A stretch of 64,000 nucleotides of DNA from Podarcis pityusensis (Eukaryota): NCBI GenBank assembly GCA_964106645.2, contig OZ067038.1, one strand, 5' to 3'. Numbering within the stretch: the stretch's first letter is position 1; each line of letters starts with the position of its first letter. Shown piece after piece: positions 43,801 to 64,000 of this stretch. A program made the position numbers.

Positions 43801-46800
43801 CTTATTTTAGAAAGTGTCCCAAGCTATGTGCCTAATACTACATTGCATACAGAAATAAAGACAAATGTATACTGGTACTTCATTTTATTCTTCCCTTATT
43901 TTTAGCTTTTCAAAATGCAGTGTTCATGTAAAGTGTTCCCACCTGCATTTCAAATAAACATTTCGCTATATTGGAGGGATCTTCTACATCAAGTAGCAAA
44001 ACAGGAAGCATGTTGCTGCTTACCTACTGCAAAACAAAAGTGGATGCTGTCAGTTCCAGCTCACTGGTAGTTGATGCTCACTCATAGCATCTTTGCTTTT
44101 TTCAAAGAAACTGGAATTCATTTGGTTAGTTATGAGTATTGGCACCTTGTATGCCACAATGGATTTCATCAAAGGTGTGGTGTATTCCCACTCTTCTAAA
44201 TTGTTCTCCAACTTGTAAATGTTTGCAAAGTGAAAATGTTTACTAGTTGCAGCTGCATCCCCAGGTAATTACACCAAAGTTTTCAGGTGATAAACTTTGC
44301 CAAGTGACGAGCAGGATTAAGTATCTCCAAATTTTAATTCCCCCCCCCCCACTGAGTAGTAAGTGAACAGGCCCCTTTTTGCTGTATAAAACACAAACGA
44401 AAACTTTCCATTTCAGTATGTTCCTTTCAAAGTGTTGGAGTAAGCTAGAATTGAATTCAGCTCATACTTTTCAGGATGCAAATCTGAGGTAACAATCCTA
44501 AACTCAGTGGAATTTACTTTAAAATAAAGATTTATAGGATCAACAAAGTCCACTTAACGGATTACTTGGGATCTTTTTAGTGCATGGGAGATAACGTGCG
44601 CTGATGGTTTATCCTTGCTTCAGAGTTGATTAAAAGTATCTGTTTTTTAAATTAAATTACAGGATGCATCTTGTTAAAAAAAAAAATATTCTGTTAATTT
44701 ATGACTACCGAATCCTGATGTACCTAAAAGGAGCACGCCTTCCCCCCTCCCATGGAGTGAGCATGGCTTCCTTTTGCTTTCATTCCACATGATACGTAGT
44801 GGCACAAAATACCTCCCTCTCTCAGAGAGTTTGTTTACCTTCTGAAAACACTTTCAAGTGATGTATATTAACTCCTTTTAAAAGCAATCTGCTCCAAGGA
44901 TATTTGTGGTGGTTGTAGACAATGTGAATTTGTAACTGTTCACGAGGCCAGCATCAGTGGCTATAAACAGTCAGACCTGTGCATGTATCAAAAGGTAAAT
45001 AATTCTGAAAACAATATCAATGGGCATTGTTATTGCTGTGTTTATCTGAATTCTATTGAGGCATAAATTAGTTTAAAATTTATTACACAAATTACAACAG
45101 CTGAAATAAGATCAGATAAACTAAAAACAGTTTGAACAGTCTAGATTAGCGTGCATACATGGACAGTGCTGTTTTGCCAGCACTTACGTCTAAGCCAAAT
45201 TTTGTATAACTTTAAACCTTTCACAGAACAAAGGCTAACTAATAAAAAAAAAACTGGCTCCATCAGCAAGCTGATATTTAACACTTAAGCTTGTTTCTCT
45301 ACAAAACCTCATATCCTTGCTCTCTGGTGCTGTAACATGACATGTATTTCTCATTATTTTTTCACTTTGGGGTTTTTTGAGCTTAAATATGTATACTCCT
45401 GTAAAAGAGAAAATTACATGGTCAAATGTCTCAGCTACATTTTCCATACAGTATAATAAACATCTAATTTAATAAATGAATTATTACAATTACTAGATTA
45501 CTAGACACTTGTTTATTTTCAGACTAGTCACCTGGTAGTGAAGTGAGATCCATCAGATTTAAGTAGGTGTGACTTTTTATATATATACCCAAATAAAAGA
45601 TTTGAAACTGATCAATTATCACATTGTTGATAAACCAGGACCTTTTGAATCAGTCTCTCTTGTTTCCCCCCTACATATCTAAAACTCAAGGATGGAACAT
45701 ACTGCAGCTACTTATGCAGTCTTATCAGGAAAGCGGATGGTGGAATCATAGACTTGTAGAGTTGAAAGGGACCCAAGGACCATCTAGTCCAGGGGTAGTC
45801 AACCTGGTCCCTACCGCCCACTAGTGGGCATTTCAGGATTCCAGGTGGGCGGTAGGGGGTTCTACGGCACATGTTACTGCAGCACTGGTGGGTGGTAAGG
45901 AAATTGTACCATCAAGAAAGATGCGTTGGTTGGCAGTAGATATAAAAAGGCTGACTACCTCTGATCTAGTCCAACCTATTCAGTTGATGGCAGTCTCATT
46001 TTATGGAAGGCCTCCTATTAACAGCCCAAAAAAGAGAACCGTGCTACACTACCAGACTTTAGATACTTTGGTCACTAAGAACCCAAAGAATATTTTGCAT
46101 TATTCCACTTTATGAAATTTTTATGCCTGCATTTATACTGTGGAGTAAGTCACACTGAGTTCAGTGAGTCTTACTCCTAGGTACAGGAGGAAGGGGTGGG
46201 AAACTTGTGGCTGCCTAGATGATGTTGGACTCCCAACGCCTATTAGACCTAGGTAGCACAGCTAATGCTCAGGGATAACAAGAGTTGCACTCCAGTGACA
46301 CTGAAGGCACAGATTCATCATATAGCATTGCAGGCTCAATTATTTAAGTTTACACATCCTGCATTATAGAAACCTAGTATTTCAATTTTGCTAGTTGCCA
46401 TTACAAATAAGCAATTGTCTTAGTAATTTAACATGCTGGCTTGAATTCCCTTTGCATAAGCAAGCACTGCAGTAGTTTCCAGTTTGAATAATGCCTGCCT
46501 CCTAAATGTGGTATTTCATGTATTTATTATCTCAAATGAATTGTGTGTTAAATGTTGACATTGTGTCCAGAAAGTACCCTGCTCTGAATTAAACATTTCA
46601 ACTTGCCTCTATCCCACTGTTCTTCTAACTAAAGGAATGACCCTACATTAGCTTTGCAATGTACTCCCTGGTGTGGCTCTGCTGGTGCACAAATGCATCT
46701 TGCTGCTGCCTTGCCCCTCCCTTTCTTTTCCGCCGAACTGCTCTTGCATGAGACTGCTGTATTAAAAATAATATCATATGCCCCTACAGGTATAGAAGGC

Positions 46801-61500: not shown

Positions 61501-64000
61501 AAGAAGAAAAGTAATCTTACAATCTACAGAAACTAGTCCAGAACTGTGGGAAATGATTGCAGCGAAAATAAAACGTCATGTGTTGCTAAGTAAGCAAAGG
61601 GTTAAGACACATGGAGTTTCCCCCTGTAAATTCCTAGAGAGGGCATTCTGTGAGGTCACATCCTTTGCTTGCCCTAGCAAGAAAAGTAACAATGGGAAAA
61701 TAATCCTTACTACCTCCTCCATGCTCAGAGCTCAGTCTTTTTTCTCTGTCATGTAGCTGATGGGAAAGGATGCTAGTCCTGAGCCCTGACTCCATTTTGA
61801 TCTCAACTGTGTATTTTGTAATGTACAAGTATACTCTGCATGACTTGTTTTTCACTGCTACTTTCTGCTTTCTCATAATATACGTGTAAGTTGTATACAC
61901 ATGTATACACAGTCAGTCCTATGCCAACTGCAACTTACAGCAACTGCACTGTGGAAAGGAACTTTTGTTGCAGCTCCTGCTCTAGTGGGGCTGTTTTAGC
62001 AGTGCTCCAGGAGGGTTTTCCTAGCTGCTTTGGAAACTCTAGTCAAAAAGTAGGACATTAATCTACTAATGAAAGATATGGTGATACAGTTATAGTTAGG
62101 CACAGATATATACATAGGTGTGGATTTTAAAAATTACCTTATGTAGTTCAGCACCTTCAGTTTTGTCAACAATTCCTCCCGATATCATAAACTTTAGAGT
62201 TTCAGAAGCTGTGTTTAGCACTGTTTGGACTGCTTGTTTGGTTTTCACGCCTGTGACAATCTCTGGATAATCACGCTGCATTAACCCTAAAACAAATTAA
62301 AATATTAGTTACCTAAACAATTTTCTTTCAGTTGAGTTGGGATCAAACATTTCTTGCCTGAAAATACTGTTTGCCACAATGATCCCCTTTGCTGTTTACT
62401 TATGCTGTAAGTAACCCCATTTCAAAAAAACCCTGCCTGTTTCCTGAATTCAAGAGGAGCAGGAGCAGTCTTAATAATAAATACAATATCTTAGGACTTT
62501 AAATTTTCCTCAGAATTTTATAAAAGTTTTGGAAATTGGAATTAAATAAGTATAAATTATTTCTCAAGAACTACCCAGAACAATTTGTATGTACAGTGGT
62601 ACCTCGGGTTAAGAACTTAATTCGTTCTGGAGGTCTGTTCTTAACCTGAAACTGTTCTTAACCTGAAGCACCACTTTAGCTAATGGGGCCTCCTGCTGCC
62701 ACCTGCGCCGCCGGAGCACGATTTCTGTTTTCATCCTGAAGCAAAGTTCTTAACCCGAGGTACTATTTTTGGGTTAGCAGAGTCTGTAACCTGAAGCGTC
62801 TGTAACCCGAGGCACCACTGTATACCTCATTAAATTCCTACCTAACTCTTTCATAGCCTCTTGTTTGTTCATTTCCAATATTCTATGTATTTCCTGTAAA
62901 AAGGGAGAAAATACACCTTATATGTTAAGCAGAACTCGAGTTTCCTTGAAAGGTAATTACATATCTATAGCCACTAATGAATAATTATACCAATTTTTAA
63001 TAGTACATATGTATTTCTGTACTTATTTTTTAAGTATGATTTTATTCTTGCCCACAACCTAAATGCTTAAAGCACTTAAAATAAAGACAACTATAAAGCA
63101 GATTCCAGCTAGAATACAAACCATGGTTTACAATACTCACCAGGCAATGCTGGTTCATTTCAGTGAGATATGGGGAGGGAAGAAATCTGTGGCATGATTC
63201 CCATTTCCTAACAACTAAGTGTTATATCTGAACTGAGTTCCATTGGAGGGAGCCATTTTTTCTTTAACTTTGGAAAAGGGCATTTAAATGGAAGATATTA
63301 ATTTCTTTAGTTTTGAGCAGTCCACGTTATTTGGGGCTGTCCTCTCTACTACTTCAGAGGGCATCATCCTATGGTACTTAAAATTAATGTGGTTGCTTGA
63401 CGTAAACCAAGCTGTTTCGTTAAGGTTCAGTTCTCTTATCTTGATCTTGTTACATTCATTTTTTTTTTAGATTCTACTAGCCTGAACTACTTCCGTGTGC
63501 TCTGAGCTTTTTACAAGTACAAAATAGCATGTAATCCCCTTGTGAAGAGTTCTTCTCAAAATATATTATCGACTCTTTAAAGCAGAAAATGGGAACCTGT
63601 GGCTCTTCAGCTCCACCACCCCAGTCAGTATGGCCAATGGGTAGGTATGATGGAAGCTGTAGTCCATCTGGTTCCACAGGTTCCTCGTCCCTGCTTTAAG
63701 GAATGGTATCACAAGTGATGTAATTTTCTGCTTAAAATGTGATGTCATGTACTCACTTGATAAACTCTCTCATGGCCAGCAATCTGTCCAATTAAACAAT
63801 TTGTATCTTCTTCACCTTGAACATATCCTTTAGCGATATCATACCGGAAAGTGAGCTGTCTGTTTATTTGTTTCTCCAATAAATAAATCGTTCTAGGTAT
63901 CACAAGCTGAAATACATAATGTATTAAAATATACATATATCATGTATTGCACAGTTAATGGTCATACCAGACCATTACAGCTCCTTCAACATTACCCAGC

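What the first reader, a model, noticed from the sequence alone, without database searches (positions are those of the whole stretch)
45235..63906. Intact SLC9C-family exchanger beside PPP6R3: possibly a paralog or locus absent in mammals
Seen: nine open, phase-consistent exons with no frameshifts. Established (recalled): human PPP6R3 is followed by GAL on 11q13, while SLC9C1 and SLC9C2 lie on 3q13 and 1q25, and SLC9C genes show patchy lineage-specific loss. Inference: this is either a distinct vertebrate SLC9C paralog retained in squamates or the ancestral position of the gene. Either matters for the evolution of the sNHE/sAC/CatSper sperm-activation module.
Basis: partly seen in the sequence, partly recalled or inferred. 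Interest (0 to 1): 0.72.

Follow-up and report, generated by a model that had tools for sequence, protein, structure and literature searches.

The report
Lizard sperm Na+/H+ exchanger gene tail
This is the last third of a lizard's single, already annotated sperm-type sodium/proton exchanger gene, lying tail to tail with PPP6R3 at a position already published as shared among non-mammalian vertebrates, so it is real but ordinary.

Summary
The minus strand of 45354-63906 holds 11 coding exons, not nine. All have AG/GT borders and none has an in-frame stop. They encode the last 435 residues of an SLC9C (sperm-type Na+/H+ exchanger) protein: post-S4 linker, cyclic-nucleotide-binding domain and C-terminal tail. 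The exchanger and voltage-sensor domains lie beyond the window end.

The exons are 97-100% identical to the public protein 'sodium/hydrogen exchanger 10-like isoform X2 [Podarcis raffonei]'. PPP6R3 is confirmed on the plus strand (CDS 9403 to about 42456), convergent with it.

- **Paralog reading rejected.** In trees all sauropsid sequences form one clade. That clade sits with mammalian SLC9C1 and SLC9C2 in a fully supported amniote clade, nested inside tetrapods. Forcing the lizard gene to group with fish and amphibian genes, apart from the mammalian ones, is rejected (AU p = 0.0004).
- **Unresolved.** The order among sauropsid, C1 and C2 is unresolved, so the gene is most simply a co-orthologue of both.
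- **Ancestral position already in print.** Romero & Nishigaki 2019 showed shared SLC9C synteny in lizard, coelacanth and gar. They also found a pseudogene between GAL and PPP6R3 in a tinamou.

Verdict: a known gene at a known locus; low interest.

The parts
63757..63906 (-). SLC9C coding exon (150 nt, phase 0 to 0): linker helix directly after S4; residues 769-818 of the public Podarcis protein
   Evidence: AG acceptor and GT donor; 100% over 50 aa to P0001
62842..62893 (-). SLC9C coding exon (52 nt, phase 0 to 1)
   Evidence: AG/GT; 100% over 17 aa to P0001
62138..62286 (-). SLC9C coding exon (149 nt, phase 1 to 0): cytoplasmic helical linker
   Evidence: AG/GT. Matches sea-urchin SLC9C1 structures at residues about 855-904, E 3e-7. 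100% to P0001
61372..61497 (-). SLC9C coding exon (126 nt, phase 0 to 0): linker leading into the CNBD
   Evidence: AG/GT; 100% over 42 aa to P0001
59676..59774 (-). SLC9C coding exon (99 nt): first beta strands of the cyclic-nucleotide-binding domain
   Evidence: AG/GT. The enclosing ORF 59646-59906 gives Pfam cNMP_binding profile positions 3-31, 20.5 bits, below the 27.5 cut-off, and matches PDB 9ydf_A (SLC9C1) at E 4.8e-7. 97% to P0001, one K-to-T difference
53274..53450 (-). SLC9C coding exon (177 nt): CNBD beta roll with the phosphate-binding cassette. Met stands where invertebrate SLC9C has the key Arg
   Evidence: AG/GT. The enclosing ORF 53211-53450 gives Pfam cNMP_binding profile positions 42-76, 16.2 bits, below cut-off. 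PDB 9ydf_A E 8.7e-9 and sea-urchin SLC9C1 E 2e-4, with residue alignments
51491..51628 (-). SLC9C coding exon (138 nt): end of the CNBD / C-helix region
   Evidence: AG/GT; 100% over 46 aa to P0001
49332..49517 (-). SLC9C coding exon (186 nt): C-terminal domain after the CNBD
   Evidence: AG/GT; 98% over 62 aa to P0001, one F-to-L difference
47396..47519 (-). SLC9C coding exon (124 nt, phase 0 to 1): poorly conserved Ser-rich tail
   Evidence: AG/GT; 100% over 41 aa to P0001; only 28-48% to other full-length species rows
46933..46994 (-). SLC9C coding exon (62 nt, phase 1 to 0): tail
   Evidence: AG/GT; 100% over 20 aa to P0001
45354..45398 (-). Last SLC9C coding exon (14 codons plus TAA stop at 45356-45354)
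   Evidence: AG acceptor; the last 14 residues of P0001 map here exactly
9403..42456 (+). PPP6R3 coding region (about 22 mapped exons), convergent with the SLC9C gene. The two stop codons lie about 2.9 kb apart
   Evidence: Pfam SAPS on exons 13480-13731, 15976-16209 and 19135-19431 in profile order. Every family-named hit to exon 34715-34897 is PPP6R3. tblastn of bear and axolotl PPP6R3 maps them from 9403 to 40298; the tails of axolotl and bat (P0302) PPP6R3 place the last coding exon at 42406-42456
28050..28197 (.). Run of 148 N inside a PPP6R3 intron; left as it is

Best explanation
The region holds the 3' third (11 coding exons, 435 codons) of the one SLC9C gene that non-avian sauropsids carry. 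Public annotation calls it 'sodium/hydrogen exchanger 10-like'. It lies tail to tail with PPP6R3.

Shown:
- The exons are intact. They encode the post-S4 linker, a cyclic-nucleotide-binding domain and a C-terminal tail.
- The gene belongs to a single sauropsid clade. That clade, mammalian SLC9C1 and mammalian SLC9C2 together form one amniote clade.

Inferred:
- The gene is the unduplicated (or singly retained) descendant of the ancestral vertebrate SLC9C, still at its old place between PPP6R3 and GAL. The two mammalian genes are relocated, fast-evolving copies.
- By homology with sea-urchin SLC9C1, the protein should be a sperm-membrane Na+/H+ exchanger. Hyperpolarisation acting on an S4 voltage sensor should open it and raise sperm pH upstream of CatSper and soluble adenylyl cyclase.
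- The public full-length Podarcis protein keeps the ND cation-site motif and a full ladder of S4 charges, which mammalian C1 and C2 lack. Voltage-gated exchange is therefore plausible.
- The phosphate-binding Arg of the CNBD is Met, as in all vertebrate rows examined. Classical cAMP tuning is therefore doubtful.
For: - **Exon structure and identity.** Canonical splice sites, no internal stops, 1308 nt in total. Per-exon identity to P0001 is 97-100%.
- **Family.** Single exons match solved SLC9C1 structures: sea urchin at E 3e-7, and 9ydf_A at E 4.8e-7 and 8.7e-9. They also match Pfam cNMP_binding weakly. P0001 carries precomputed Pfam PF00999, PF00520 and PF00027.
- **Distribution.** All 46 named hits out of 47 to exon 62138-62284 come from squamates, turtles or crocodilians. 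No bird appears among the 47 or the 106 hits.
- **Trees.** Quick tree of 56 rows: one sauropsid clade of 22 rows, support 99. Careful tree of 30 rows: tetrapods 100/100, amniotes 100/100, stem lengths sauropsid 0.18, C1 0.93, C2 1.18. The same topology comes from only the 419 kept columns that correspond to the part encoded in the window.
- **AU test.** Sauropsid + amphibian + fish held as one clade: dlnL 196.8, p 0.0004.
- **Functional motifs.** ND motif and S4 ladder; phosphate-binding cassette.
- **Synteny in print.** PMC6660944.
- **Neighbour.** PPP6R3.
Against: - The order within the amniote clade is unresolved. C1+C2 is the best tree, but at only 70/47.5 support. C1+sauropsid is not rejected (dlnL 6.0, p 0.08), nor is C2+sauropsid (dlnL 2.0, p 0.36). 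'Co-orthologue of both' is therefore the simplest reading, not a demonstrated one.
- The trees use the public Podarcis protein as a stand-in for the window's gene, not a model joined from the window.
- GAL lies outside the window. No vertebrate genome could be searched here, so the synteny rests on one paper's text and figure legend. The figure itself and its Table S2 were not seen.
- A sauropsid orthologue of C1 or C2 at least 50% identical to a mammalian representative would be hidden inside that cluster.
- Expression in testis and transport activity are untested.
- Amphioxus scores higher against the lizard-type query (850 bits) than opossum NHE11 (798) or bat SLC9C1 (747). On its own this looks like old paralogy. 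The trees explain it instead by the long mammalian stem branches.
Confidence: 0.85

Rival explanations
1. An amniote-age third paralog. Two duplications happened before sauropsids and mammals split. Sauropsids kept only the PPP6R3-linked copy, and mammals kept only the other two. The lizard gene would then be a paralog of both SLC9C1 and SLC9C2, and its true orthologue would be lost in mammals.
For: - The sauropsid/C1/C2 split is an unresolved trichotomy, and none of the three resolutions is rejected.
- The mammalian genes are said to lie on other chromosomes.
Against: - It needs two extra losses in sauropsids.
- No named sauropsid sequence falls in the C1 or C2 clade. All 22 sauropsid rows form one clade.
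- In one search, 10 of the 72 representatives in the id range P0121-P0199 that were compared (7 ids that served as references were left out) have their best match in mammalian C1 or C2. The 3 that were looked up and carry an organism name are rabbit, elephant and a hamster cluster.
- The best tree joins C1 with C2.
Confidence: 0.1
2. An ancient vertebrate paralog dating from the early genome duplications. It would be shared by fishes, amphibians and sauropsids and lost in mammals, whose SLC9C1 and SLC9C2 would be the other ohnologues.
For: - The lizard-type protein is 44-48% identical to sturgeon, shark, ray and frog proteins (41% to coelacanth and skate), but only 34-40% to mammalian ones.
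- Amphioxus outscores both mammalian genes.
- The sauropsid protein keeps ancestral motifs that mammals lack.
Against: - Amniote and tetrapod clades are each supported 100/100, both with full-length rows and with the window-encoded part alone.
- The AU test rejects the required grouping (dlnL 196.8, p 0.0004).
- Long-branch artefacts would pull the mammalian genes towards the root, not into the tetrapods.
- The identity pattern is explained by mammalian stem branches 5-6 times longer than the sauropsid one.
Confidence: 0.02
3. A decaying or non-functional copy: a unitary pseudogene in the making, as in birds. It would look intact only in the part seen here.
For: - Birds lost the gene, and a tinamou keeps a pseudogene at this locus (PMC6660944).
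- The last three exons are poorly conserved across species.
- The CNBD lacks the canonical Arg.
Against: - All 11 exons are open with canonical splice sites.
- The sauropsid stem and terminal branches are short.
- Exons 1-8 are 60-83% identical to alligator and turtle.
- The public 1203-residue model of the close relative has all three Pfam domains.
- The missing Arg is a vertebrate-wide state, not a lizard lesion.
Confidence: 0.03

Closest known systems
'sodium/hydrogen exchanger 10-like isoform X2' of Podarcis raffonei (NCBI model, P0001, 1203 aa) and its sauropsid orthologues (Lacerta, Zootoca, Anolis, snakes, turtles, crocodilians)
   Same: The same gene. Per-exon identity is 97-100% (2 differences in 433 residues) and the C-terminus and stop are identical. 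Lacerta agilis is 91% identical overall to P0001.
   Different: The window holds only residues 769-1203. Two substitutions show that it is a different individual or a close congener.
Sea-urchin SLC9C1 (SpSLC9C1; PDB 8otq, 8pcz, 8u6z, 8xpq and others): a voltage- and cAMP-gated Na+/H+ exchanger
   Same: Same tripartite family. Single window exons align to its linker (residues about 855-904) and to its CNBD. The public Podarcis protein keeps the ND motif and the S4 charge ladder also kept by the invertebrate rows (amphioxus, nemertean, limpet, scorpion, Ciona); no sea-urchin row was in that alignment.
   Different: The phosphate-binding Arg (R1053 in sea urchin, whose R1053Q mutant loses the cAMP shift; PMC6052114) is Met in the lizard exon. 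No function has been measured for any reptile protein.
Mammalian SLC9C1 (NHE10, sNHE) and SLC9C2 (NHE11)
   Same: Members of the same amniote clade (100/100). The CNBD cassette of the lizard exon resembles that of the SLC9C1 CNBD in PDB 9ydf_A, including Met at the Arg position.
   Different: - Not a 1:1 orthologue of either; the trichotomy is unresolved.
- The mammalian stems are 5-6 times longer.
- The mammalian rows lack the ND motif and part of the S4 ladder. PMC6052114 says the same for mammalian SLC9C1.
- The chromosomal location is said to differ.
The SLC9C synteny block of Romero & Nishigaki 2019 (lizard, coelacanth, spotted gar; pseudogene in tinamou between GAL and PPP6R3)
   Same: The same neighbourhood: SLC9C next to PPP6R3.
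   Different: The window stops inside the SLC9C gene, so GAL is not seen. The paper's figure and its Table S2 were not available to me.

Membership tests
SLC9C (sperm-type Na+/H+ exchangers: NHE domain + VSD + CNBD) | C-terminal cyclic-nucleotide-binding domain fold | tested here: met
   - The domain is split over exons 59774-59676, 53450-53274 and 51628-51491.
- Per-ORF Pfam cNMP_binding hits cover profile positions 3-31 and 42-76, at 20.5 and 16.2 bits. Each is below the 27.5 cut-off, as expected for pieces of a domain.
- PDB SLC9C1 CNBD 9ydf_A matches at E 4.8e-7 and 8.7e-9.
SLC9C (sperm-type Na+/H+ exchangers: NHE domain + VSD + CNBD) | N-terminal Na+/H+ exchanger domain (Pfam PF00999) with the ND cation-site motif | not testable with these tools
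   It lies beyond position 64000. In the near-identical public protein P0001 the precomputed Pfam domains include PF00999, and the ND motif is present.
SLC9C (sperm-type Na+/H+ exchangers: NHE domain + VSD + CNBD) | S4-type voltage-sensor domain between the exchanger and the CNBD | not testable with these tools
   It lies beyond position 64000; the window starts just after S4. P0001 has precomputed PF00520 and an R/K ladder in S4 like the amphioxus and fish rows.
SLC9C (sperm-type Na+/H+ exchangers: NHE domain + VSD + CNBD) | Groups within the metazoan SLC9C clade in a tree | tested here: met
   Shown with P0001 as a stand-in for the window's gene: and 53 (the last uses only the part encoded in the window).
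SLC9C (sperm-type Na+/H+ exchangers: NHE domain + VSD + CNBD) | Testis/sperm-restricted expression | not testable with these tools
   No expression data were on hand.
Canonical cAMP-binding CNBD (as in SpSLC9C1, HCN, PKA) | Conserved Arg in the phosphate-binding cassette | tested here: not met
   Met stands at that column in the window exon. No vertebrate row has Arg there (0 of 27), while all 5 invertebrate rows do. Membership of the ligand-binding subclass is therefore not claimed.
Mammalian SLC9C1 orthology group | Supported sister relation to mammalian SLC9C1 alone | tested here: inconclusive
   Not found in the best tree; holding it costs dlnL 6.0, p-AU 0.08.
Mammalian SLC9C2 orthology group | Supported sister relation to mammalian SLC9C2 alone | tested here: inconclusive
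   Not found in the best tree; holding it costs dlnL 2.0, p-AU 0.36.
PPP6R3 (SAPS-domain regulatory subunit 3 of protein phosphatase 6), for the neighbour gene | SAPS domain, plus a subunit-3-specific C-terminal region | tested here: met
   - SAPS hits on three exons: 51.5 bits (above the cut-off), 20.5 and 16.7 bits.
- All hits to the C-terminal exon 34715-34897 that carry a family name are PPP6R3.
- Bear and axolotl PPP6R3 map collinearly along the plus strand; the tails of axolotl and bat PPP6R3 reach the last coding exon.

The most novel reading that the evidence does not exclude
The lizard gene is a third amniote-age SLC9C lineage whose true orthologue mammals lost from the PPP6R3-GAL interval, and which birds lost altogether. 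Non-avian reptiles would then be the only amniotes that still run the ancestral exchanger: ND cation site, full S4 gating charges, old locus. Mammalian SLC9C1 and SLC9C2 would be two derived side copies. The unresolved trichotomy does not exclude this.
Probability: 0.1. Interest if true: 0.5.

Novelty: already known. Interest (0 to 1): 0.2.

Why it matters
As a genome feature it adds little. The gene is in public annotation, and its place beside PPP6R3 was used in 2019 to find a bird pseudogene.

Two by-products may interest the sperm-signalling field.

- A 2023 review states that the evolutionary relationship of SLC9C1 and SLC9C2 is 'currently unclear' (PMC10573352). The trees here place both inside amniotes, after the split from amphibians, so their duplication is young rather than an early vertebrate event.
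- The sauropsid protein evolves 5-6 times more slowly than either mammalian copy. It keeps the ND cation site and the S4 charges whose absence makes mammalian SLC9C1 hard to interpret. A reptile SLC9C could therefore be a tractable amniote model of a true voltage-gated Na+/H+ exchanger.

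Tried and rejected
- **Ancient-paralog idea.** Suggested by the raw identities and by amphioxus outscoring the mammalian genes. Rejected by the trees and the AU test.
- **Resolving sauropsid/C1/C2.** The three AU comparisons left it open.
- **PDB search for PPP6R3** with exon ORF 9397-9630: no match. PPP6R3 was identified by Pfam and by named homologues instead.
- **Pfam on six long intronic or intergenic ORFs.** Five gave nothing. One gave a sub-threshold Cadherin_pro hit (22.5 bits against a cut-off of 23) at 5337-5735, which I take for chance.
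- **Joined model.** The step of joining the window's exons into one peptide and searching or treeing it was left out. Exons were searched one by one. The public proteins of Podarcis raffonei and Lacerta agilis served as full-length stand-ins.
  - Synteny in other vertebrate genomes, because the only genome collection offered is bacterial and archaeal.
  - The supplement (Table S2) and Figure 5A of PMC6660944.

Full report
**What is in the sequence**

The window has one run of 148 N at 28050-28197 and is otherwise plain sequence of about 33-43% G+C in 2-kb windows. On the minus strand between 63906 and 45354 I find 11 coding exons. All have AG acceptors, all 10 donors are GT, and none has an in-frame stop. 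The last ends in TAA at 45356-45354. Together they make 1308 nt, which is 435 codons plus the stop.

The 52-, 62- and 45-nt exons are the likely omissions. The lower limit, 45235, is the end of an ORF in another frame, 119 nt past the real stop.

**What the exons encode**

- ORF 62096-62296, which holds the exon 62286-62138, matches the cytoplasmic linker of sea-urchin SLC9C1 structures (E 3e-7).
- ORF 59646-59906, which holds the exon 59774-59676, matches the SLC9C1 cyclic-nucleotide-binding domain 9ydf_A at E 4.8e-7, and sea-urchin SLC9C1. The exon 53450-53274, searched on its own, matches 9ydf_A at E 8.7e-9 and sea-urchin SLC9C1.
- The ORFs holding those two exons give weak Pfam cNMP_binding hits to successive parts of the profile.

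A search with exon 62138-62284 alone returned 47 proteins. The 46 named ones all come from squamates, turtles or crocodilians. The best, at 100% identity, is 'sodium/hydrogen exchanger 10-like isoform X2 [Podarcis raffonei]', 1203 aa (P0001).

tblastn of P0001 on the window maps its residues 769-1203 onto the 11 exons. Per-exon identity is 97-100%, with 2 differences in 433 in-frame residues. The window therefore comes from a Podarcis-like lacertid. The gene is already annotated, and only its last third lies in the window. The exchanger and voltage-sensor domains lie beyond position 64000, so the window alone cannot show that the whole gene is intact.

**The neighbour**

Plus-strand exons carry the SAPS domain in profile order. 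The C-terminal exon ORF 34715-34897 hits proteins that, wherever a family name is given, are called protein phosphatase 6 regulatory subunit 3. Bear and axolotl PPP6R3 map collinearly from the ATG at 9403 to 40298. The tails of axolotl and bat PPP6R3 place the last coding exon at 42406-42456.

PPP6R3 and the SLC9C gene are convergent, with about 2.9 kb between their stop codons. The N run lies in a PPP6R3 intron and was left alone.

**Is it a separate paralog?**

Exons were searched singly, and the public Podarcis and Lacerta proteins stood in for the full-length gene.

Raw similarity at first suggests old paralogy.
- P0001 is 60-91% identical to other sauropsid proteins.
- It is 44-48% identical to sturgeon, shark, ray and frog proteins, and 41% to coelacanth and skate.
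- It is only 34-40% identical to mammalian NHE10 and NHE11.
- In an exhaustive HMMER search with the Lacerta protein, amphioxus (850 bits) outscores opossum NHE11 (798) and bat SLC9C1 (747).

The trees say otherwise.
- In a quick tree of 56 rows, all 22 sauropsid rows form one clade (support 99). That includes the two Hemicordylus genes on different chromosomes, the two Pogona models and the two Malaclemys models.
- In a careful tree of 30 rows and 1174 columns, vertebrates, tetrapods and amniotes are each supported 100/100.
- The amniote clade consists of the sauropsid clade (stem 0.18), mammalian SLC9C1 (stem 0.93) and mammalian SLC9C2 (stem 1.18).
- The same topology comes from only the 419 kept columns that correspond to the part encoded in the window.
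- Holding sauropsids with amphibians and fishes, with the mammalian genes outside, costs 196.8 log-likelihood units and is rejected (p-AU 0.0004).

The low identity to mammals thus reflects fast mammalian evolution, not age.

Within amniotes the order is open.
- C1+C2 is the best tree, but with support of only 70/47.5.
- C1+sauropsid has p 0.08.
- C2+sauropsid has p 0.36.

**No sauropsid copy of C1 or C2 seen**

In one search, 72 representatives in the id range P0121-P0199 were compared with named references. Ten have their best match in mammalian C1 or C2.
- Three were looked up and are rabbit, elephant and a hamster cluster.
- One carries only a UniParc id.
- Six were not looked up.

No named sauropsid protein falls with C1 or C2. 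The simplest reading is one amniote gene, duplicated on the mammalian side. The lizard gene would then be co-orthologous to both. An amniote-age third lineage is not excluded; I put it at about 0.1.

**Position**

Romero & Nishigaki 2019 (PMC6660944; I read passages, including the Methods and the legend of Fig. 5) report four things.
- They took the tinamou fragment 'flanked by GAL and PPP6R3' and recovered a degraded SLC9C exon from it.
- They state that no bird keeps sNHE.
- They state that reptiles keep CatSper, sNHE and sAC.

A full-text search for SLC9C together with PPP6R3 finds only this paper. The 'ancestral position' reading is therefore supported, and it has been in print since 2019. 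I could not see the figure or Table S2. I could not check any other vertebrate genome, and GAL lies outside the window.

**How it probably works**

The following rests on homology with the sea-urchin protein (PMC6052114, PMC10620092; passages read). The product should be a sperm-membrane Na+/H+ exchanger that opens on hyperpolarisation through an S4 voltage sensor.

- The public Podarcis protein keeps the ND cation-site motif and an Arg/Lys ladder in S4, like amphioxus and fishes. The mammalian C1 and C2 rows lack both. Windler et al. note the same for mammalian SLC9C1.
[quoted passage not shown] The R1053Q mutant of the sea-urchin protein loses the cAMP shift.
- The same column is Arg in 5 of 5 invertebrate rows and in 0 of 27 vertebrate rows. 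This is a vertebrate-wide state, not a lizard lesion.

Voltage gating is therefore plausible and classical cAMP tuning is doubtful. Neither has been measured.

**Novelty and score**

The gene is annotated, its locus is published, and the paralog idea fails, so the finding is already known. Two modest by-products remain.
- A 2023 review calls the relation of SLC9C1 and SLC9C2 'currently unclear' (PMC10573352). A search for SLC9C2 together with 'gene duplication' found 4 papers; I read passages of one of them, that review, and the other three only as search listings, so none was seen to treat the question. The trees here date the split to after the amphibian-amniote divergence.
- The reptile protein is the slow-evolving, ancestral-looking amniote form.

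Interest: 0.2.

Noticed in passing
window 53274-53450 (-), and the alignment of public proteins: The key Arg of the CNBD phosphate-binding cassette is present in 5 of 5 invertebrate SLC9C rows. It is absent at that column in all 27 vertebrate rows, where it is mostly Met, as in this exon. Mutating this Arg abolishes the cAMP shift in the sea-urchin protein, so vertebrate SLC9C proteins as a group may not bind cAMP in the classical way.
   Followed up: partly
outside the window (public protein P0001, residues about 215-221 and 750-768): Sauropsid SLC9C keeps the ND cation-site motif and a full S4 Arg/Lys ladder, while mammalian C1 and C2 rows have lost both. One of the two Hemicordylus copies (P0037) has also lost the ND motif.
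   Followed up: partly
window 48432-48786 and 49867-50221: Two inverted copies of an interspersed repeat of about 355 nt (86-91% complementary) flank the exon 49517-49332. Such an arrangement can favour exon skipping or back-splicing.
   Followed up: no
window 51058-51165 / 51186-51293: A 108-nt inverted repeat, 95% complementary with a 20-nt loop, lies in the intron between exons 51628-51491 and 49517-49332. It could be a hairpin-forming element.
   Followed up: no
window 55654-55894 and 62603-62845: Two copies of a SINE-like repeat (79-92% identical) lie in introns. The second abuts the donor site of the 52-nt exon.
   Followed up: no
window 55002-55634 (+): A 210-residue open frame inside an SLC9C intron, the longest ORF in the region. 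It has no Pfam match. By recall only, it resembles the C-terminal tail of a LINE ORF2.
   Followed up: partly
related proteins P0027/P0037, P0048/P0057/P0139, P0051/P0059: There appear to be lineage-specific extra SLC9C copies within sauropsids: two genes on different chromosomes in Hemicordylus capensis, several models on one contig in Pogona vitticeps, and two on one contig in Malaclemys.
   Followed up: partly
window 26548-31070 (+), including the N run 28050-28197: Residues about 546-574 of the bear PPP6R3 isoform found no match in the window. This could be an alternative exon, or sequence lying in the masked stretch. I did not pursue it.
   Followed up: no
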